A DNA stretch of 6,790 nucleotides from a virus (taxonomy: Duplodnaviria; Heunggongvirae; Uroviricota; Caudoviricetes): IMG/VR virus record IMGVR_UViG_3300015179_000038. The stretch is one strand, 5' to 3'. This document shows positions 1,709 through 6,790 of this stretch, in pieces. How positions within the stretch are numbered: the stretch's first letter is position 1; every line of letters starts with the position of its first letter. A model generated the notes under the pieces. That model did no database searches, had not been told where the DNA came from, and saw nothing but the letters and a program-made list of their open reading frames with translations. The translations under genes were made by a program, and so were the position numbers.

Positions 1709-1763
1709 GGTGTTGAACACCAATTTAAGCTCTGGTGTTAAACACGTCAAGTGTTGAACACTT
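1709..1763. promoter_or_regulatory. Divergent promoter region with three palindromic operator-like sites GTGTT(G/A)AACAC
   Basis: Sites at 1709-1721 (GGTGTTGAACACC), 1734-1745 (GGTGTTAAACAC) and 1749-1763 (AAGTGTTGAACACTT). Candidate + promoter: -35 TTGAAC 1754-1759, -10 CATACT 1777-1782, leading to the ORF at 1812. Candidate - promoter: -35 TTGACG at 1750..1745, -10 TTAAAT at 1728..1723, leading to gene E. The palindromes overlap both. Confidence 0.5.
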
Positions 1764-2771: not shown

Positions 2772-2934
2772 AATTCCCCCTTTGTTGTTTCTTAAAGAGT
2801 CATTGGGTGGGTTATTGGGTTGGGTTGTGTCTGATTGTGTCAGGATGATTCAGAGTTGGCAAATGTTGAGTCCGTATGGTTTACAGAAAGAGGAACAATC
2901 AGGATAAAATCATTTAAATTCATATTAATACAAA

Positions 2935-2963
2935 GGCATAAAATCTCGTTTTATGCCTTTTTT
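2935..2963. terminator. Hairpin with flanking T-runs (potentially bidirectional) between int and alpA
   Basis: Perfect 9-bp stem GGCATAAAA/TTTTATGCC with loop TCTCG, followed on + by TTTTTT and on - by TTTGTATT. Plausibly ends the int transcript before the alpA promoter region. Confidence 0.45.
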
Positions 2964-3054
2964 CTCACGCGTTAAAGCGTTATTCGCTAATGTATAAAAA
3001 ACCAGTCATACAAATAAAATCAGTCACTTATAAACCTGTGTACTTTTTCGCCTC

Positions 3055-3104
3055 TTGTTCGTGGTTGTTCCACGTTGTTTCACATTGTTCGCCGTTGTAT
3101 CTGT
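3055..3104. repeat. Five phased 10-bp direct repeats, consensus TTGTTC-NNNN (iteron-like)
   Basis: TTGTTCGTGG, TTGTTCCACG, TTGTTTCACA, TTGTTCGCCG, TTGTATCTGT at exactly 10-bp register, 43 bp 3' of the int stop. Confidence 0.6.
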
Positions 3105-3146: not shown

Positions 3147-4394
3147 TTATTTTCTTCTGGCTGCTGGTAGTGCGGTTACGTTTTCATGTGCTCCCGCCAG
3201 TATCCCTAACCGCTCCGTCCACATATCCAGCGCATTGCGTTTCGCATCCAGATAACGGGAGTGATTATAGACTCGTTGCATCCCTGGCATCTGGTGTCCT
3301 GTAAGCTGCTCCACGACATGCGGATCAACGCCTAAATCGTTCAGCATGGTTGTAAAGGTGCGCCGGATGTCATGCAGTGACCAGTGGGGGTGATTAAGCC
3401 TCCTGTGCGCTAATCTTCCATACTGCGATACGCTGGCCTCCTGTTTCACTTCCCCCAGCAATAAGCCCGTGTGCCTGTTCTGCTCCACCAGCTGCGTGAT
3501 GAACGGCAGTATTGCTTCCGGTATAGGCCGGAATATGGCTACCTTCGTTTTGCTGTGCTCCTTCGGAACGGTCCAGAGCATTTCGGTAAAATCCCACTCG
3601 CCGATCTCCGATAACCTAAGTTCGACCGTCCGGCATCCGAACACAATCAGGAGGCGGATTAGCGCGATGTAGTAGGGGGAAAATATTTTTTTGTCCAGTG
3701 CCTGCAATAATTCGCCCAGCTCTTTATTGCTTAAGACTCGTTCGCTTATATCCGGTTTTTTCCCAACGTCCGCTACGTTCAGATCATCGAGAACGTTACT
3801 GATTGCATAGCGCCGCCTCCGGCAGTACTTAAGCGCCTGTTTGCATGTCTGTAGCACGAATCCGGCAGTAACAGGTGTTCGCTTTGCCACCTGGTCAAAG
3901 CAGGCCAGCCAGTGCCGTAGCTCGCATTTATCCAGCGGCATAGCACCAATTTTGGTGATTATGTTTTTATTGATCCGGCTTTTCAGTGATTCGTAATCTG
4001 TGCGCTTTTCCTTTGCGTACGACTCAAGCCAATAGGTGAGCGCATCGCCAACCGTTACAGGCTTTAACGCTTCCTGCATGGTGTAATTCAGTTCATAGCG
4101 TGGATTTTTCCCCTCAGCCAGCCATGCGCGACACTGGGCGGCTTTTTCCCTGGCTGCTTTCAGACTCAGATCGGGATAATTTCCCAGCTTAACGCGTTCA
4201 GGTTGTGTCCCTCTTCCCATTCCGGCCCTGTATGTGAAATACCAGGTTAAAAGGCCGCTGGTTGAATGCCTGACGCTCAGGTTTCCACCGTCATTAAGAA
4301 AGGCTGTTTTTTGGACGGGTGTGCCGTTGATTTTCCTTAGTTGTGTGTCACTCAGTTTGTTAAGTGCTCTGCTCATAATTTTGATTCCGGTCAT
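3147..4394 (-). CDS. int: P4-family tyrosine integrase (site-specific recombinase)
   Basis: Track ORF 3147-4397 (GTG); ATG at 4394 or 4376 (MSRALNKLSD) is more likely. N-terminus LSDTQLRK...FLNDGGNLSV...WYFTYR fits the P4-type arm-binding domain; C-terminus has the box II HDIRRT ... LTGH ... RVYNHSRY tyrosine-recombinase motif with the catalytic Arg region GCRTVELRL. Confidence 0.9.
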   Translation of the reverse strand: MTGIKIMSRALNKLSDTQLRKINGTPVQKTAFLNDGGNLSVRHSTSGLLTWYFTYRAGMGRGTQPERVKLGNYPDLSLKAAREKAAQCRAWLAEGKNPRYELNYTMQEALKPVTVGDALTYWLESYAKEKRTDYESLKSRINKNIITKIGAMPLDKCELRHWLACFDQVAKRTPVTAGFVLQTCKQALKYCRRRRYAISNVLDDLNVADVGKKPDISERVLSNKELGELLQALDKKIFSPYYIALIRLLIVFGCRTVELRLSEIGEWDFTEMLWTVPKEHSKTKVAIFRPIPEAILPFITQLVEQNRHTGLLLGEVKQEASVSQYGRLAHRRLNHPHWSLHDIRRTFTTMLNDLGVDPHVVEQLTGHQMPGMQRVYNHSRYLDAKRNALDMWTERLGILAGAHENVTALPAARRK

Positions 4395-4398
4395 CACA

Positions 4399-4527
4399 AT
4401 TAACTACACCATTAACTACACCGATCGTTGCACAAAGGGCTACAACGTGAAACAAGCTGAAACAAGGAAAATTAAAAATCCGTTGAAAATCAAAAACATA
4501 ACGAACAACCTGAAACATTGTGAAACA
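4399..4527. repeat. Putative att / integrase arm-site region: tandem 12-mer ATTAACTACACC x2 plus phased TGAAACA repeats
   Basis: ATTAACTACACC at 4399-4410 and 4411-4422. TGAAACA at 4448, 4458, 4511 and 4521 (two pairs at 10-bp spacing), with degenerate copies at 4484 and 4502. Lies between the int 5' end and the allE start. Confidence 0.5.
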
Positions 4528-4548
4528 GTAAAAAACACTATTTGATAA

Positions 4549-5334
4549 AAGGGATATTTAAATAACGTCACCGGTTACCGCGATGATTTACTGGCTAACC
4601 GTGCGATTGTTAAACACGGTAATTTCGCACTGTTAACACCAGACGGTCTGGTAAAAAATATTATTCCGGGCTTTGAAAATTGTGACGCGACAATCCTCTC
4701 CACGCCAAAGCTGGGTGCCTCTTTTGTTGATTATCTGGTCACACTGCATCAAAACGGTGGCAACCAACAGGGCTTCGGTGGCGAAGGCATTGAAACGTTC
4801 CTGTATGTGATCTCTGGAAATATCACTGCCAAAGCCGAAGGCAAAACATTTGCCTTAAGCGAAGGTGGCTATCTTTATTGCCCGCCAGGCTCCTTAATGA
4901 CGTTTGTTAACGCCCATGCCGAAGACAGCCAAATCTTTTTATATAAGCGCCGCTATGTTCCAATAGAAGGCCATGCACCGTGGCTGGTTTCTGGCAATGC
5001 CAGCGAACTGGAACGCATTCATTATGAAGGCATGGACGATGTTATTCTGCTGGATTTTCTGCCCAAAGAGTTAGGTTTTGATATGAACATGCATATCCTC
5101 TCTTTTGCACCAGGTGCCAGCCACGGTTATATCGAAACACACGTTCAGGAACACGGTGCCTATATTCTTTCCGGTCAGGGGGTTTATAACCTCGACAATA
5201 ACTGGATCCCGGTGAAAAAAGGCGATTACATCTTTATGGGCGCTTATTCTTTACAGGCTGGTTATGGTGTAGGGCGTGGTGAAGCGTTCAGCTATATTTA
5301 CTCGAAAGATTGTAACCGCGACGTAGAGATTTAA
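4549..5334 (+). CDS. allE: (S)-ureidoglycine aminohydrolase (cupin; YlbA/AllE); frame lacks a canonical start codon here
   Basis: The track ORF starts at GTG 4807, but the frame is open and protein-like from 4549 (KGYLNNVTGYREDLLANRAIVKHGNFALL...), giving 261 codons to TAA 5332-5334, which matches the length I recall for E. coli AllE. Codon 4549-4551 is AAG, preceded by TGA TAA. Confidence 0.75.
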   Translation, partial: KGYLNNVTGYRDDLLANRAIVKHGNFALLTPDGLVKNIIPGFENCDATILSTPKLGASFVDYLVTLHQNGGNQQGFGGEGIETFLYVISGNITAKAEGKTFALSEGGYLYCPPGSLMTFVNAHAEDSQIFLYKRRYVPIEGHAPWLVSGNASELERIHYEGMDDVILLDFLPKELGFDMNMHILSFAPGASHGYIETHVQEHGAYILSGQGVYNLDNNWIPVKKGDYIFMGAYSLQAGYGVGRGEAFSYIYSKDCNRDVEI

Positions 5335-6758: not shown

Positions 6759-6790
6759 AGATCGGAAGAGCACACGTCTGAACTCCAGTC
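6759..6790. other. Illumina TruSeq adapter sequence (technical artefact at contig end)
   Basis: AGATCGGAAGAGCACACGTCTGAACTCCAGTC is the standard TruSeq read-1 3' adapter. Genomic sequence ends at 6758. Confidence 0.95.

What the first reader, a model, noticed from the sequence alone, without database searches (positions are those of the whole stretch)
4399..4527. Repeat architecture of the putative attachment site
A perfect tandem 12-mer (ATTAACTACACC x2) sits directly at the int start, and four to six TGAAACA-type repeats lie in two pairs with 10-bp spacing between it and the junction. This looks like arm-type Int binding sites overlapping the int promoter, the arrangement that gives Int autoregulation in P4. 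It also fixes the likely element boundary to within about 20 bp of 4548.
Basis: partly seen in the sequence, partly recalled or inferred. Interest (0 to 1): 0.45.

Follow-up and report, generated by a model that had tools for sequence, protein, structure and literature searches.

The report
Satellite island attachment-site arm with integrase sites
This stretch is the integrase-side arm of the attachment site of a roughly 15-kb phage-satellite island inserted at the start codon of the E. coli allE gene; the tandem 12-mer is almost certainly a pair of integrase "arm" sites, as in satellite phage P4, and the TGAAACA repeats are a second set of sites, probably for the island's AlpA excision/activator protein. 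It is a well-built but ordinary example of a known design.

Summary
ATTAACTACACC x2 lies at 4399-4422, and exact TGAAACA lies at 4448, 4458, 4511 and 4521, within 10-bp-phased RAACA arrays.

The region is element DNA, not native DNA. K-12 has only allC-stop/10 bp/allE-ATG at this place.

The element is a 14.9-kb capsid-forming PICI with the int-alpA module of the prototype EcCICFT073.

An identical, co-oriented 12-mer doublet lies in the far arm. Spacing is fixed at 132 and 78 bp from the core centre in six E. coli islands that use four different cores.

P4's GenBank record annotates the same layout as 'attP arm sequence repeats'.

Among 84 related int loci, 82% carry a 12-bp-period doublet just upstream of int, against 0.9% of control windows. 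The doublet sequence tracks Int residues 1-60. It does not track AlpA or the rest of Int.

So the doublet, not TGAAACA, is the Int arm-type site.

The TGAAACA arrays also occur beside the far-arm doublet and upstream of alpA, and their flavour shifts with the AlpA allele. They are probably AlpA (P4 Vis homologue) sites.

Int autoregulation is plausible but untested.

Verdict: a new member of a known kind, of modest interest.

The parts
3147..4376 (-). int: tyrosine integrase, 409 aa, P4-like, with an N-terminal arm-binding domain
   Evidence: ORF. Pfam hits: Arm-DNA-bind_3 (aa 8-95, E 8.6e-18), Phage_integrase (aa 214-375, E 2.9e-16) and Phage_int_M (weak). It is 24.5% identical to P4 Int (E 5e-13) and 93% identical to a 3339-member cluster.
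4399..4422 (+). Tandem doublet ATTAACTACACC x2 (GGTGTAGTTAAT x2 on the int-sense strand): two arm-type Int sites of the int-proximal arm
   Evidence: P4 annotation. An identical co-oriented doublet lies in the far arm (L001 6732-6755). The doublet ends exactly 132 bp from the core centre in 6 of 6 islands.
4430..4466 (+). Array A: 10-bp-phased RAACAAG units. The strong units are TGAAACA at 4448-4454 and 4458-4464; weaker ACAA units start at 4432 and 4442. Probable AlpA (RDF) sites.
   Evidence: The two strong units are conserved in position in 9 aligned attL arms. The flavour changes with the AlpA allele.
4488..4500 (+). IHF-like element AATCAAAAACATA (1 mismatch to WATCAANNNNTTR); tentative
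   Evidence: not significant on its own (7 matches against 7.25 expected). However, '...ATAATCA...' is conserved in all 9 attL arms. The far arm carries a perfect consensus, TAACGCATTGATT, at L001 6676-6688.
4501..4537 (+). Array B: four units exactly 10 bp apart (aCGAACA 4501-4507, TGAAACA 4511-4517, TGAAACA 4521-4527, AAAAACA 4531-4537), next to the core. Probable AlpA sites.
4495..4524 (-). Only sigma-70-like candidate for the int promoter (-35 TTCACA, 18-nt spacer, -10 TATGTT). It overlaps array B. Weak prediction.
   Evidence: 9 of 12 matches; the count of such sites is not above that in shuffles. It is not conserved in the L007 type.
4543..4550 (+). Core-type Int site C (TGATAAAA), the element-side half of the core
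   Evidence: It is conserved in all attL junctions whatever the target site. In the phoQ/roxA attP it forms a perfect inverted repeat, TGATAAAA-TATGTCC-TTTTATCA.
4551..4557 (+). Overlap (crossover) segment GGGATAT, the 7-bp identity shared by attL, attR and the empty site; this is the element boundary
   Evidence: attL, attR at L001 6651-6657, K-12 attB. With this choice of centre the 132/78 geometry is the same at four different cores.
4552..5334 (+). allE ((S)-ureidoglycine aminohydrolase), host gene, which has lost its ATG (AAG at 4549-4551)
3053..3101 (-). Array D: four perfectly phased units on the int/alpA-sense strand (GCGAACA, TGAAACA, TGGAACA, ACGAACA; RAACA starts at 3090, 3080, 3070 and 3060), between the int stop and alpA. 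It ends 21 nt upstream of a -10-like TATAAG (3032-3027) that has no -35. Candidate AlpA site of the self-activated alpA promoter.
   Evidence: (D2). It is kept as a 5-7-unit periodic array in EcCICFT073 and L006 although the flanks have diverged. AlpA activates its own promoter in EcCICFT073 (PMC6092414).
2583..2771 (-). alpA: 62-aa winged-helix protein, the proposed binder of the RAACA arrays
   Evidence: Pfam Phage_AlpA, E 2.7e-18. It is 46% identical to P4 Vis, which is annotated as an excisionase and transcriptional regulator.
2931..2962 (.). 12-bp-stem hairpin (AAAGGCATAAAA/TTTTATGCCTTT) between array D and alpA; a possible terminator in the alpA leader
   Evidence: Sequence and RNA fold

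Best explanation
Window 4399-4557 is the int-proximal arm plus core of attL of a 14.9-kb capsid-forming phage-inducible chromosomal island (PICI). The island carries the EcCICFT073-type int-alpA module and integrated by tyrosine-recombinase crossover within the 7-bp GGGATAT that overlaps the allE start codon.

Shown: the junction, the empty site, the far arm, the conserved geometry and the covariation.

Inferred:
(1) The tandem 12-mers are two arm-type sites for the N-terminal Arm-DNA-bind_3 domain of Int. Together with the identical co-oriented doublet in the other arm they offer four half-sites, one per subunit of an Int tetramer. Bends, probably made by IHF, bring them to the core sites (TGATAAAA / overlap / partner).
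(2) The 10-bp-phased TGAAACA/RAACA units are a separate class of sites, most likely for AlpA, the P4 Vis homologue. AlpA would coat one face of the helix beside both doublets and next to the core to shape the excisive complex. It would use the same motif upstream of alpA for self-activation, possibly by antitermination.
(3) Because int reads outward from this arm, Int (and perhaps AlpA) bound here probably also damps int expression, as in P4 and KplE1.

My confidence by part: attL arm and core, about 0.97; doublet as Int arm sites, about 0.85; arrays as AlpA sites, about 0.55; autoregulation, about 0.4.
For: Junction: K-12 reads taaggagtcataaATGGGATATTTAAAT. attL reads gataaaaGGGATATttaaat. 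attR reads cataaatGGGATATatctat. The island between allC and allE carries terminase, portal, protease, capsid, primase, alpA and int.

The same arms occur with other cores at phoQ/roxA (including EcCICFT073), smrA/abgR, clpS/cspD and tqsA. The distances are invariant, 132 and 77-78 bp, matching the 132+/-2 and 81+/-2 published for the HE-PICI doubled motif (PMC10111431).

P4's record annotates 12-bp 'attP arm sequence repeats' as co-oriented tandem doublets next to the int ATG and across the core.

A doublet with period 12 and at least 9/10 matches is found upstream of int in 82% of 84 loci, against 0.9% of 794 control windows.

The doublet type follows Int aa 1-60. Proteus L056/L059 (TGTATAAACA) and L060 (GTGGGGTAC) have Int 96-100% identical from aa 61 onward but 46% identical before it, AlpA differs by 1 aa, and the adjacent array region is conserved. 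There are 56 locus pairs with AlpA at least 95% identical but a different doublet type.

Far-arm doublets, 6-15 kb from int, match the int-side type in types A1, B2, C, D, E, F and in P4.

Arrays: the units are strictly one-stranded and phased. They are present beside both doublets and upstream of alpA. Elements with the AlpA-1a allele use TGRAACA, while elements with the AlpA-1b allele use only CGAAC[AC] in attL, the far arm and the alpA upstream region, with the doublet unchanged. L017, with an altered AlpA helix, has GTAYA units both in attL and in the alpA leader.

RDF sites are typically direct repeats one helical turn apart, and Apl of phage 186 binds both att and promoters (PMC7498355 abstract). 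alpA is needed for PICI excision (PMC11773190) and activates its own promoter (PMC6092414).
Against: There are no binding data for this element.

The int-side doublet is physically adjacent to the int 5' end, so a single recombination tract could co-transfer them without any functional link. This is mitigated, not eliminated, by the far-arm doublets matching.

The core of the array unit (AACA) is nearly the same across class-1 AlpA alleles, so covariation with AlpA is suggestive only. Int also differs (about 80% identity) between the two E. coli subfamilies.

In EcCICFT073, AlpA overexpression did not change a Pint-lacZ fusion. That is awkward if AlpA sits on array B over the predicted -35.

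The int-arm IHF-like match is not significant.

The promoter prediction is weak and not conserved.

That the P4 repeats are Int footprints rests on the GenBank annotation plus my recollection of Pierson & Kahn 1987, which I could not read.
Confidence: 0.78

Rival explanations
1. One reading: the TGAAACA repeats are the arm-type Int sites, and the 12-mer doublet is something else, such as an operator for AlpA or another regulator at the int start.
For: From my recollection, P4 Int was described as binding several direct repeats in the arms. The TGAAACA units are numerous, phased, and present in both arms. One pair overlaps the only promoter-like match.
Against: The repeats annotated as arm repeats in P4 are 12-mers in tandem doublets with the same placement as ATTAACTACACC x2. 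The doublet sequence switches with Int residues 1-60 while the neighbouring array region and AlpA stay the same. Identical AlpA occurs with four unrelated doublet types. The arrays also sit upstream of alpA, where Int has no known role.
Confidence: 0.08
2. The RAACA arrays are bound by a host protein (an OmpR/PhoB-type response regulator, Fis or H-NS), or act as intrinsically curved DNA, rather than by AlpA. The doublets are still Int sites.
For: Tandem TGAAACATnn units resemble OmpR half-sites (my own recollection, not tested). Phased A-rich units can curve DNA. AACA-type phased units are widespread across clades that carry different AlpA classes. AlpA did not affect Pint in EcCICFT073. H-NS controls alpA in a Shewanella CP4-like element (PMC5148205).
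Against: There is a concerted flavour shift (TGRAACA to CGAACA) in three unlinked places of the element along with the AlpA allele. There are GTAYA units in the one lineage with an altered AlpA recognition helix. Class-2 AlpA elements show a different period and motif. The units are too short and interrupted to be classical A-tracts.
Confidence: 0.17
3. The region is native allC-allE regulatory DNA, or the repeats are a chance low-complexity feature.
For: None beyond the A-rich composition.
Against: K-12 has 10 bp between the allC stop and the allE ATG. The same 174 bp occurs at at least five other chromosomal sites, always next to this int. The repeat counts exceed the shuffles.
Confidence: 0.01

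Closest known systems
Satellite phage P4 attP (Pierson & Kahn 1987; features in GenBank NC_001609)
   Same: Int is a P4-like integrase with an arm-binding domain. A 12-bp arm repeat forms a tandem doublet 16-28 bp upstream of the int ATG, with a second co-oriented doublet across the core. An IHF consensus lies in one arm. A four-unit 10-bp-phased array lies next to the int-side doublet. The AlpA-family RDF (Vis) is 46% identical to this AlpA. Int and Vis both down-regulate P4 int (Piazzolla 2006, as cited in PMC2951348).
   Different: The unit sequences are unrelated (ATGCCCCCAATT against ATTAACTACACC). Int is only 24.5% identical. The spacings are 122/64 bp against 132/78 bp. The P4 core is a 20-bp tRNA-Leu 3' end, whereas here the identity is a bare 7 bp at a protein-gene start codon. 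P4 has extra single repeats, including an inverted one over the int start, that are absent here. vis is far from int in P4, whereas alpA is adjacent to int here.
Doubled motif of helper-embedded PICIs (Tommasini, Mageeney & Williams 2023, PMC10111431)
   Same: There are two co-oriented copies of a doubled 12-bp-period motif about 80 bp on one side and 132 bp on the other side of the attP centre, with an adjacent alpA. Their motif TGTGTATTGCA shares GTGTA..T with GGTGTAGTTAAT. I recovered that motif upstream of int in L080 and L087.
   Different: The motif sequence, Int clade and targets (chromosomal genes, not prophage late genes) all differ. That paper calls the doubled motif unique to HE-PICIs and leaves the binder open (Int arm domains, AlpA or unknown). 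Here the architecture is general across the Int family, and the covariation points to the Int N-domain.
KplE1 (CPS-53) IntS/TorI attL (Panis et al. 2010, PMC2951348)
   Same: int faces attL, so its promoter lies inside the recombination arm. Arm-type Int sites and phased RDF sites are interleaved there. Both Int and the RDF repress int.
   Different: KplE1 has experimental transcription start sites and site mutagenesis. Here the promoter is only predicted. The site sequences are unrelated. TorI is not adjacent to int and is not known to self-activate.
Phage 186 Apl and other dual-purpose RDFs (PMC7498355); P. aeruginosa AlpA antiterminator (PMC7969949)
   Same: A small winged-helix protein uses direct repeats one helical turn apart both at att and at a promoter (Apl). 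An AlpA-family protein binds a bipartite element in a promoter and reads through a downstream terminator. This is comparable to array D, then a -10-like hexamer, then a hairpin, then alpA.
   Different: No binding or antitermination data exist for PICI AlpA. The element sequences are unrelated (GGGACGN5GGTA in Pseudomonas).

Membership tests
P4-type attP/attL of an arm-binding tyrosine integrase | Adjacent integrase with an N-terminal arm-type DNA-binding domain and a tyrosine-recombinase catalytic domain | tested here: met
   Pfam Arm-DNA-bind_3 (E 8.6e-18) and Phage_integrase (E 2.9e-16). BLASTP to P4 Int gives E 5e-13.
P4-type attP/attL of an arm-binding tyrosine integrase | A short identity block shared by attL, attR and the empty site, flanked by core-type sites | tested here: met
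   GGGATAT is present in attL (4551-4557), attR (L001 6651-6657) and K-12 attB. The conserved TGATAAAA forms an inverted repeat with its partner in sister attPs.
P4-type attP/attL of an arm-binding tyrosine integrase | Arm-type repeats distinct from the core sequence on both arms at fixed distances | tested here: met
   12-mer doublets lie on both arms, co-oriented, 132 and 78 bp from the core centre in 6 of 6 islands. The layout is the same as the annotated P4 repeats.
P4-type attP/attL of an arm-binding tyrosine integrase | Int protein physically binds the arm repeats | not testable with these tools
   The only evidence is covariation of the doublet type with Int aa 1-60.
P4-type attP/attL of an arm-binding tyrosine integrase | The element excises and integrates at this site | not testable with these tools
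   The site is occupied in 13 of 5426 genomes and empty in the rest. An int-att segment of the sister element EcCICFT073 integrates, according to PMC6092414.
Gram-negative PICI (EcCICFT073 family; capsid-forming subtype) | Unidirectional order of int, alpA, a regulatory zone, primase/rep and late genes, about 10-15 kb, with no tail or lysis genes | tested here: met
   See the L001 annotation. The int-alpA region is 80-93% identical to EcCICFT073 and O55:H7 islands.
Gram-negative PICI (EcCICFT073 family; capsid-forming subtype) | Own capsid module (terminase, portal, protease, major capsid protein) | tested here: met
   These genes are annotated in L001 at 7578-13574. They lie outside the window.
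Gram-negative PICI (EcCICFT073 family; capsid-forming subtype) | Helper-phage-dependent induction and transfer | not testable with these tools
   -
RDF (excisionase) binding-site array | Three or more direct repeats on one strand, phased about one helical turn apart, within an att arm | tested here: met
   RAACA starts are at 4503/4513/4523/4533 and at 4450/4460, with none on the opposite strand.
RDF (excisionase) binding-site array | A cognate small winged-helix RDF is encoded by the element | tested here: met
   AlpA matches PF05930 (E 2.7e-18) and is 46% identical to P4 Vis.
RDF (excisionase) binding-site array | The site sequence follows the RDF allele | tested here: inconclusive
   The TGRAACA to CGAACA shift goes with AlpA 1a to 1b at three unlinked places. 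GTAYA units go with the altered helix in L017. However, the AACA core is shared and Int differs too.
Autoregulated integrase promoter inside attL (KplE1/P4 paradigm) | The int promoter overlaps Int or RDF sites | tested here: inconclusive
   The orientation fits. The single 9/12 sigma-70 match overlaps array B, but it is not above background and is not conserved. No -10 is evident within the doublet.
Autoregulated integrase promoter inside attL (KplE1/P4 paradigm) | Int represses its own transcription | not testable with these tools
   -

The most novel reading that the evidence does not exclude
In all P4-like and PICI integrases, the arm-site doublets and the first ~60 residues of Int form an exchangeable specificity cassette. 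The doublets have a fixed 12-bp period and sit at fixed distances of about 132 and 78 bp. The cassette is swapped by recombination independently of the catalytic body, the core specificity and AlpA, as in the Proteus pair. The phased RAACA arrays let one small protein, AlpA, couple excision to its own terminator-gated auto-induction. This would generalise a motif published as unique to helper-embedded PICIs and would settle its binder.
Probability: 0.45. Interest if true: 0.5.

Novelty: new member of a known kind. Interest (0 to 1): 0.35.

Why it matters
For this window, the result fixes the island boundary to 7 bp. It shows that integration removes the allE start codon, and it assigns roles to each repeat class.

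More broadly, the same two-doublet geometry runs from P4 through EcCICFT073-type, fis-type and helper-embedded PICIs, with clade-specific 12-mers that follow the Int N-terminus. This gives a simple sequence rule for finding attP arms and both ends of such satellites. It points to Int as the binder left open in the 2023 description. It also suggests that core retargeting (at least 5 sites in E. coli with identical arms) and arm retargeting evolve as separate modules. That is useful for satellite annotation and for engineering integrases, but it does not change the accepted picture of arm-dependent tyrosine recombination.

Tried and rejected
(1) There is no tRNA or tmRNA in the window, so this is not a tRNA-type att site.

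(2) I tried to read Pierson & Kahn 1987, Piazzolla 2006 and Lindqvist 1993. None is held in the library. The P4 footprint claim therefore rests on the GenBank feature table and my memory.

(3) IHF in the int arm: the 1-mismatch match at 4488-4500 is at chance level. I kept it only as tentative because of its conservation.

(4) Promoter: no convincing -10 lies inside or beside the doublet on manual reading. The scan gives one weak site, and it does not align with a promoter-like hexamer pair in the clpS/cspD subfamily.

(5) Single 1-mismatch hits of the doublet unit far downstream of int in many loci turned out to be chance matches in coding DNA. Only true tandem far-arm doublets were counted.

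(6) The far arm of the Proteus C-type loci was outside the fetched DNA. The D-type far arm was recovered instead from an IMG/VR contig.

(7) I searched for a third, inverted 12-mer over the int start, as in P4. None was found with up to 2 mismatches.

(8) The OmpR-like reading of TGAAACATnn was considered from memory only and not tested.

(9) Class-2 AlpA elements show a motif with a different period (7-8 bp) in attL and in the alpA leader. I did not pursue this because strand orientation was inconsistent with class 1.

Full report
**1. Observation**

The window is E. coli DNA. It carries glxK (-) and allE (+) on the right. On the left it carries a minus-strand tyrosine integrase gene (3147-4376), an alpA-family gene (2583-2771) and small satellite-type ORFs.

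- The exact tandem ATTAACTACACC/ATTAACTACACC is at 4399-4422.
- Exact TGAAACA is at 4448, 4458, 4511 and 4521 on the + strand. That is 6 hits in the window against 1.3 expected, and 1 of 200 shuffles reaches 6.
- In-phase degenerate units extend both pairs. RAACA starts at 4450 and 4460, and at 4503, 4513, 4523 and 4533. All are on one strand, about ten times the window density.
- The doublet ends 22 bp from the conserved int ATG (4376). It does not sit on it.

**2. What the DNA is**

In K-12 the allC stop and the allE ATG are 10 bp apart: taaggagtcataaATGGGATATTTAAAT. In the window the sequence left of GGGATAT is foreign...tttgataaaaGGGATATttaaat.

In a complete genome 99.3% identical to the window (NZ_CM128603, L001), the other junction reads cataaatGGGATATatctat. 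So the crossover lies in the 7-bp GGGATAT (window 4551-4557), and the island is 14,901 bp.

The island is a PICI of the capsid-forming kind. It carries int, alpA, an icd-like gene, a primase, ssb, and an HK97-type capsid, protease, portal and terminase. Only 13 of 5426 complete E. coli genomes carry the int-allE junction.

**3. Same arms, different cores**

The 174 bp between int and the core occurs in 1160 of 5426 E. coli genomes. It is always next to this int family, at several sites:
- phoQ/roxA, including the experimentally studied prototype EcCICFT073;
- smrA/abgR;
- clpS/cspD;
- tqsA.

Reconstructed attPs read C-O-C' as follows:
- TGATAAAA-TATGTCC-TTTTATCA, a perfect inverted repeat;
- TTATAAAA-TCACGAT-ATTTATAA;
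- TGATAAAA-GGGATAT-ATCTATAA, which is this element.

In six islands with four different cores, the int-side doublet ends exactly 132 bp from the centre of O. The far-arm doublet starts 77-78 bp from it.

**4. The 12-mer doublet is the Int arm-type site**

(i) The far arm of every complete island carries the same doublet in the same orientation.

(ii) The GenBank record of P4 annotates 12-bp 'attP arm sequence repeats'. They form a tandem doublet just upstream of the int ATG (3942-3965) and a co-oriented tandem doublet across the core (4151-4174). This is the same design with a different word.

(iii) Tommasini et al. 2023 described a doubled 12-bp-period motif in helper-embedded PICIs, 81+/-2 and 132+/-2 bp from the attP centre. 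They left its binder open and called the motif unique to that clade.

(iv) In 84 int loci (42-100% Int identity, Enterobacterales to Vibrio and Shewanella), the best short tandem within 130 bp upstream of int has period exactly 12 with at least 9/10 identity in 82%. The figure is 0.9% for 794 control windows from the same loci.

(v) The word is clade-specific: GTGTAGTTAAT, GTGTAGTCnnT, GTGCAGTC, GTGTATCAnnn, TGTATAAACA, GTGGGGTAnTC, GGGGTACAT, TGTATTGC. Each goes with a distinct signature in the beta-sheet part of the Int N-domain.

(vi) There are natural swaps. Proteus L056/L059 and L060 have Int 96-100% identical from residue 61 to the end but 46% identical in residues 1-60. AlpA differs by one residue and the flanking array region is conserved. 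The doublet changes from TGTATAAACA to GTGGGGTAC. Hafnia/Yersinia loci compared with L017 show the same pattern.

(vii) The doublet does not follow AlpA. There are 56 locus pairs with AlpA at least 95% identical but a different doublet type. L036 and L057 share a doublet with only 51% AlpA identity.

(viii) The linkage caveat is that the doublet lies next to the int 5' end. This is weakened because far-arm doublets, 6-15 kb away, always match the int-side type. This holds for types A1, B2, C, D (an IMG/VR contig), E, F and P4.

Four half-sites in two adjacent pairs fit one arm domain per subunit of an Int tetramer. That last step is inference from lambda-type intasomes (established knowledge).

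**5. The TGAAACA arrays**

The arrays are a different class of site.
- They lie between the doublet and the core in the int arm (arrays A and B).
- They lie just beyond the doublet in the far arm (TGAAACAacgTGGAACAaat).
- They form a four-unit, perfectly phased array on the int/alpA-sense strand between the int stop and alpA (3053-3101).
- That last array is retained as a 5-7-unit periodic array in EcCICFT073 and L006, although the surrounding sequence has diverged.

Evidence bearing on AlpA as the binder:
- RDF sites are characteristically direct repeats one helical turn apart, and some RDFs, such as Apl of phage 186, also act at promoters (PMC7498355).
- The island's AlpA is 46% identical to P4 Vis, the P4 excisionase and regulator.
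- alpA is required for PICI excision and activates its own promoter in EcCICFT073.
- E. coli islands with AlpA allele 1a use TGAAACA/TGGAACA in the att arms. Islands with allele 1b (about 60% identical) use only CGAAC[AC] in attL (4 of 4), in the far arm (3 of 3) and upstream of alpA. The doublet is unchanged.
- The one lineage with an altered AlpA recognition helix (L017) has GTAYA units both in attL and in the alpA leader.

I therefore assign the arrays to AlpA with about 55% confidence.

Against this assignment:
- the AACA core is shared by all class-1 alleles;
- Int also differs between the subfamilies;
- AlpA did not change Pint-lacZ in EcCICFT073;
- a host winged-helix regulator or DNA curvature remains possible.

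**6. Bending sites and promoter**

The far arm has a perfect IHF consensus between the core and the doublet. It is TAACGCATTGATT in L001, with CAAnnnnTTGATT in the sister islands. P4 has one in its int arm. The int-arm match here (4488-4500) has one mismatch and is at chance level, although the ATAATCA core is conserved.

The only sigma-70-like site for int has -35 TTCACA (4524-4519) and -10 TATGTT (4500-4495), over array B. It is weak and not conserved. Autoregulation by Int, and possibly by AlpA, is expected by analogy with P4 and KplE1 and PAI I536, but it is not shown here.

**7. Comparison and novelty**

This is a textbook-type arm-dependent att site of the P4 lineage, so it is a new member of a known kind.

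Beyond the window, the analysis indicates that the 'doubled motif' is not peculiar to helper-embedded PICIs. It appears to be the family-wide arm site, with a word that follows the Int N-terminus and a geometry held constant while cores are retargeted.

**8. Consequence for the host gene**

The element-side base at 4550 turns the allE ATG into AAG, with an in-frame TAA just upstream. The next canonical in-frame start (ATG/GTG/TTG) is GTG 4807. RefSeq resorts to a CTG start. allE is therefore probably not translated normally in carriers.

Noticed in passing
window 6759-6790: The last 32 bases are the Illumina TruSeq adapter AGATCGGAAGAGCACACGTCTGAACTCCAGTC. The right end of the contig is untrimmed adapter, not genome.
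   Followed up: no
window 4546-4557 (and L001 21592; L113 2350): Integration replaces the allE start codon (ATG to AAG), with an in-frame TAA just upstream. The next canonical in-frame start (ATG/GTG/TTG) is GTG 4807, and RefSeq annotates a CTG start. attR keeps ATGGGATAT fused to 10 element codons. The sister island at tqsA likewise removes that gene's N-terminus.
   Followed up: partly
L001-L007, L112-L116: One arm design, with identical doublets and 132/78-bp spacing, serves at least five chromosomal targets in E. coli (allE, phoQ/roxA, smrA/abgR, clpS/cspD, tqsA). Int is 79-93% identical among them, and only about 30 bp around the core differ. Two further hits lie under a 'magnesium chelatase domain' gene (H93, H94); I did not open them.
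   Followed up: partly
window 1709-1719, 1735-1745, 1750-1760: Three near-palindromes (GTGTTGAACAC, GTGTTAAACAC, GTGTTGAACAC) lie in the divergent region between the leftward small-ORF operon and the rightward ORF 1812-1991 (YlcI/YnfO-like in L001). They look like an operator set for an unidentified regulator.
   Followed up: no
window 2931-2962; L010, L013, L014, L016, L017 just upstream of alpA: A 12-bp-stem hairpin lies between array D and alpA. In fis-site PICIs a terminator-like hairpin sits immediately before the alpA ATG, with two GAAC units (TAYA in L017) 10 bp apart in its loop. Pseudomonas AlpA is a promoter-loaded antiterminator (PMC7969949), so the reported 'self-activation' of PICI alpA may be antitermination.
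   Followed up: partly
L056/L059 vs L060 (Proteus); L012/L013 vs L015/L017: These are natural chimeric integrases. Residues 61 to the end are 87-100% identical, while residues 1-60 are only 46-59% identical. The arm doublet switches type along with the N-terminus.
   Followed up: yes
L081, L084, L085 (about -290 from int); L097+L110: A second doublet of the same type lies about 230-260 bp upstream of the int-side doublet, across a duplicated fis 3' end. This indicates tandem islands or an assembled attP.
   Followed up: partly
L055 about 12,000-12,500 (upstream of alpA, Klebsiella pneumoniae ATCC 13883): There are long iterated arrays (CATTCAACAG x4, ACGACACGTA x3, and five or six TGTTCATC units at 10-11 bp) between the extra ORF and alpA. 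They may be an origin-like or regulator-binding iteron region.
   Followed up: no
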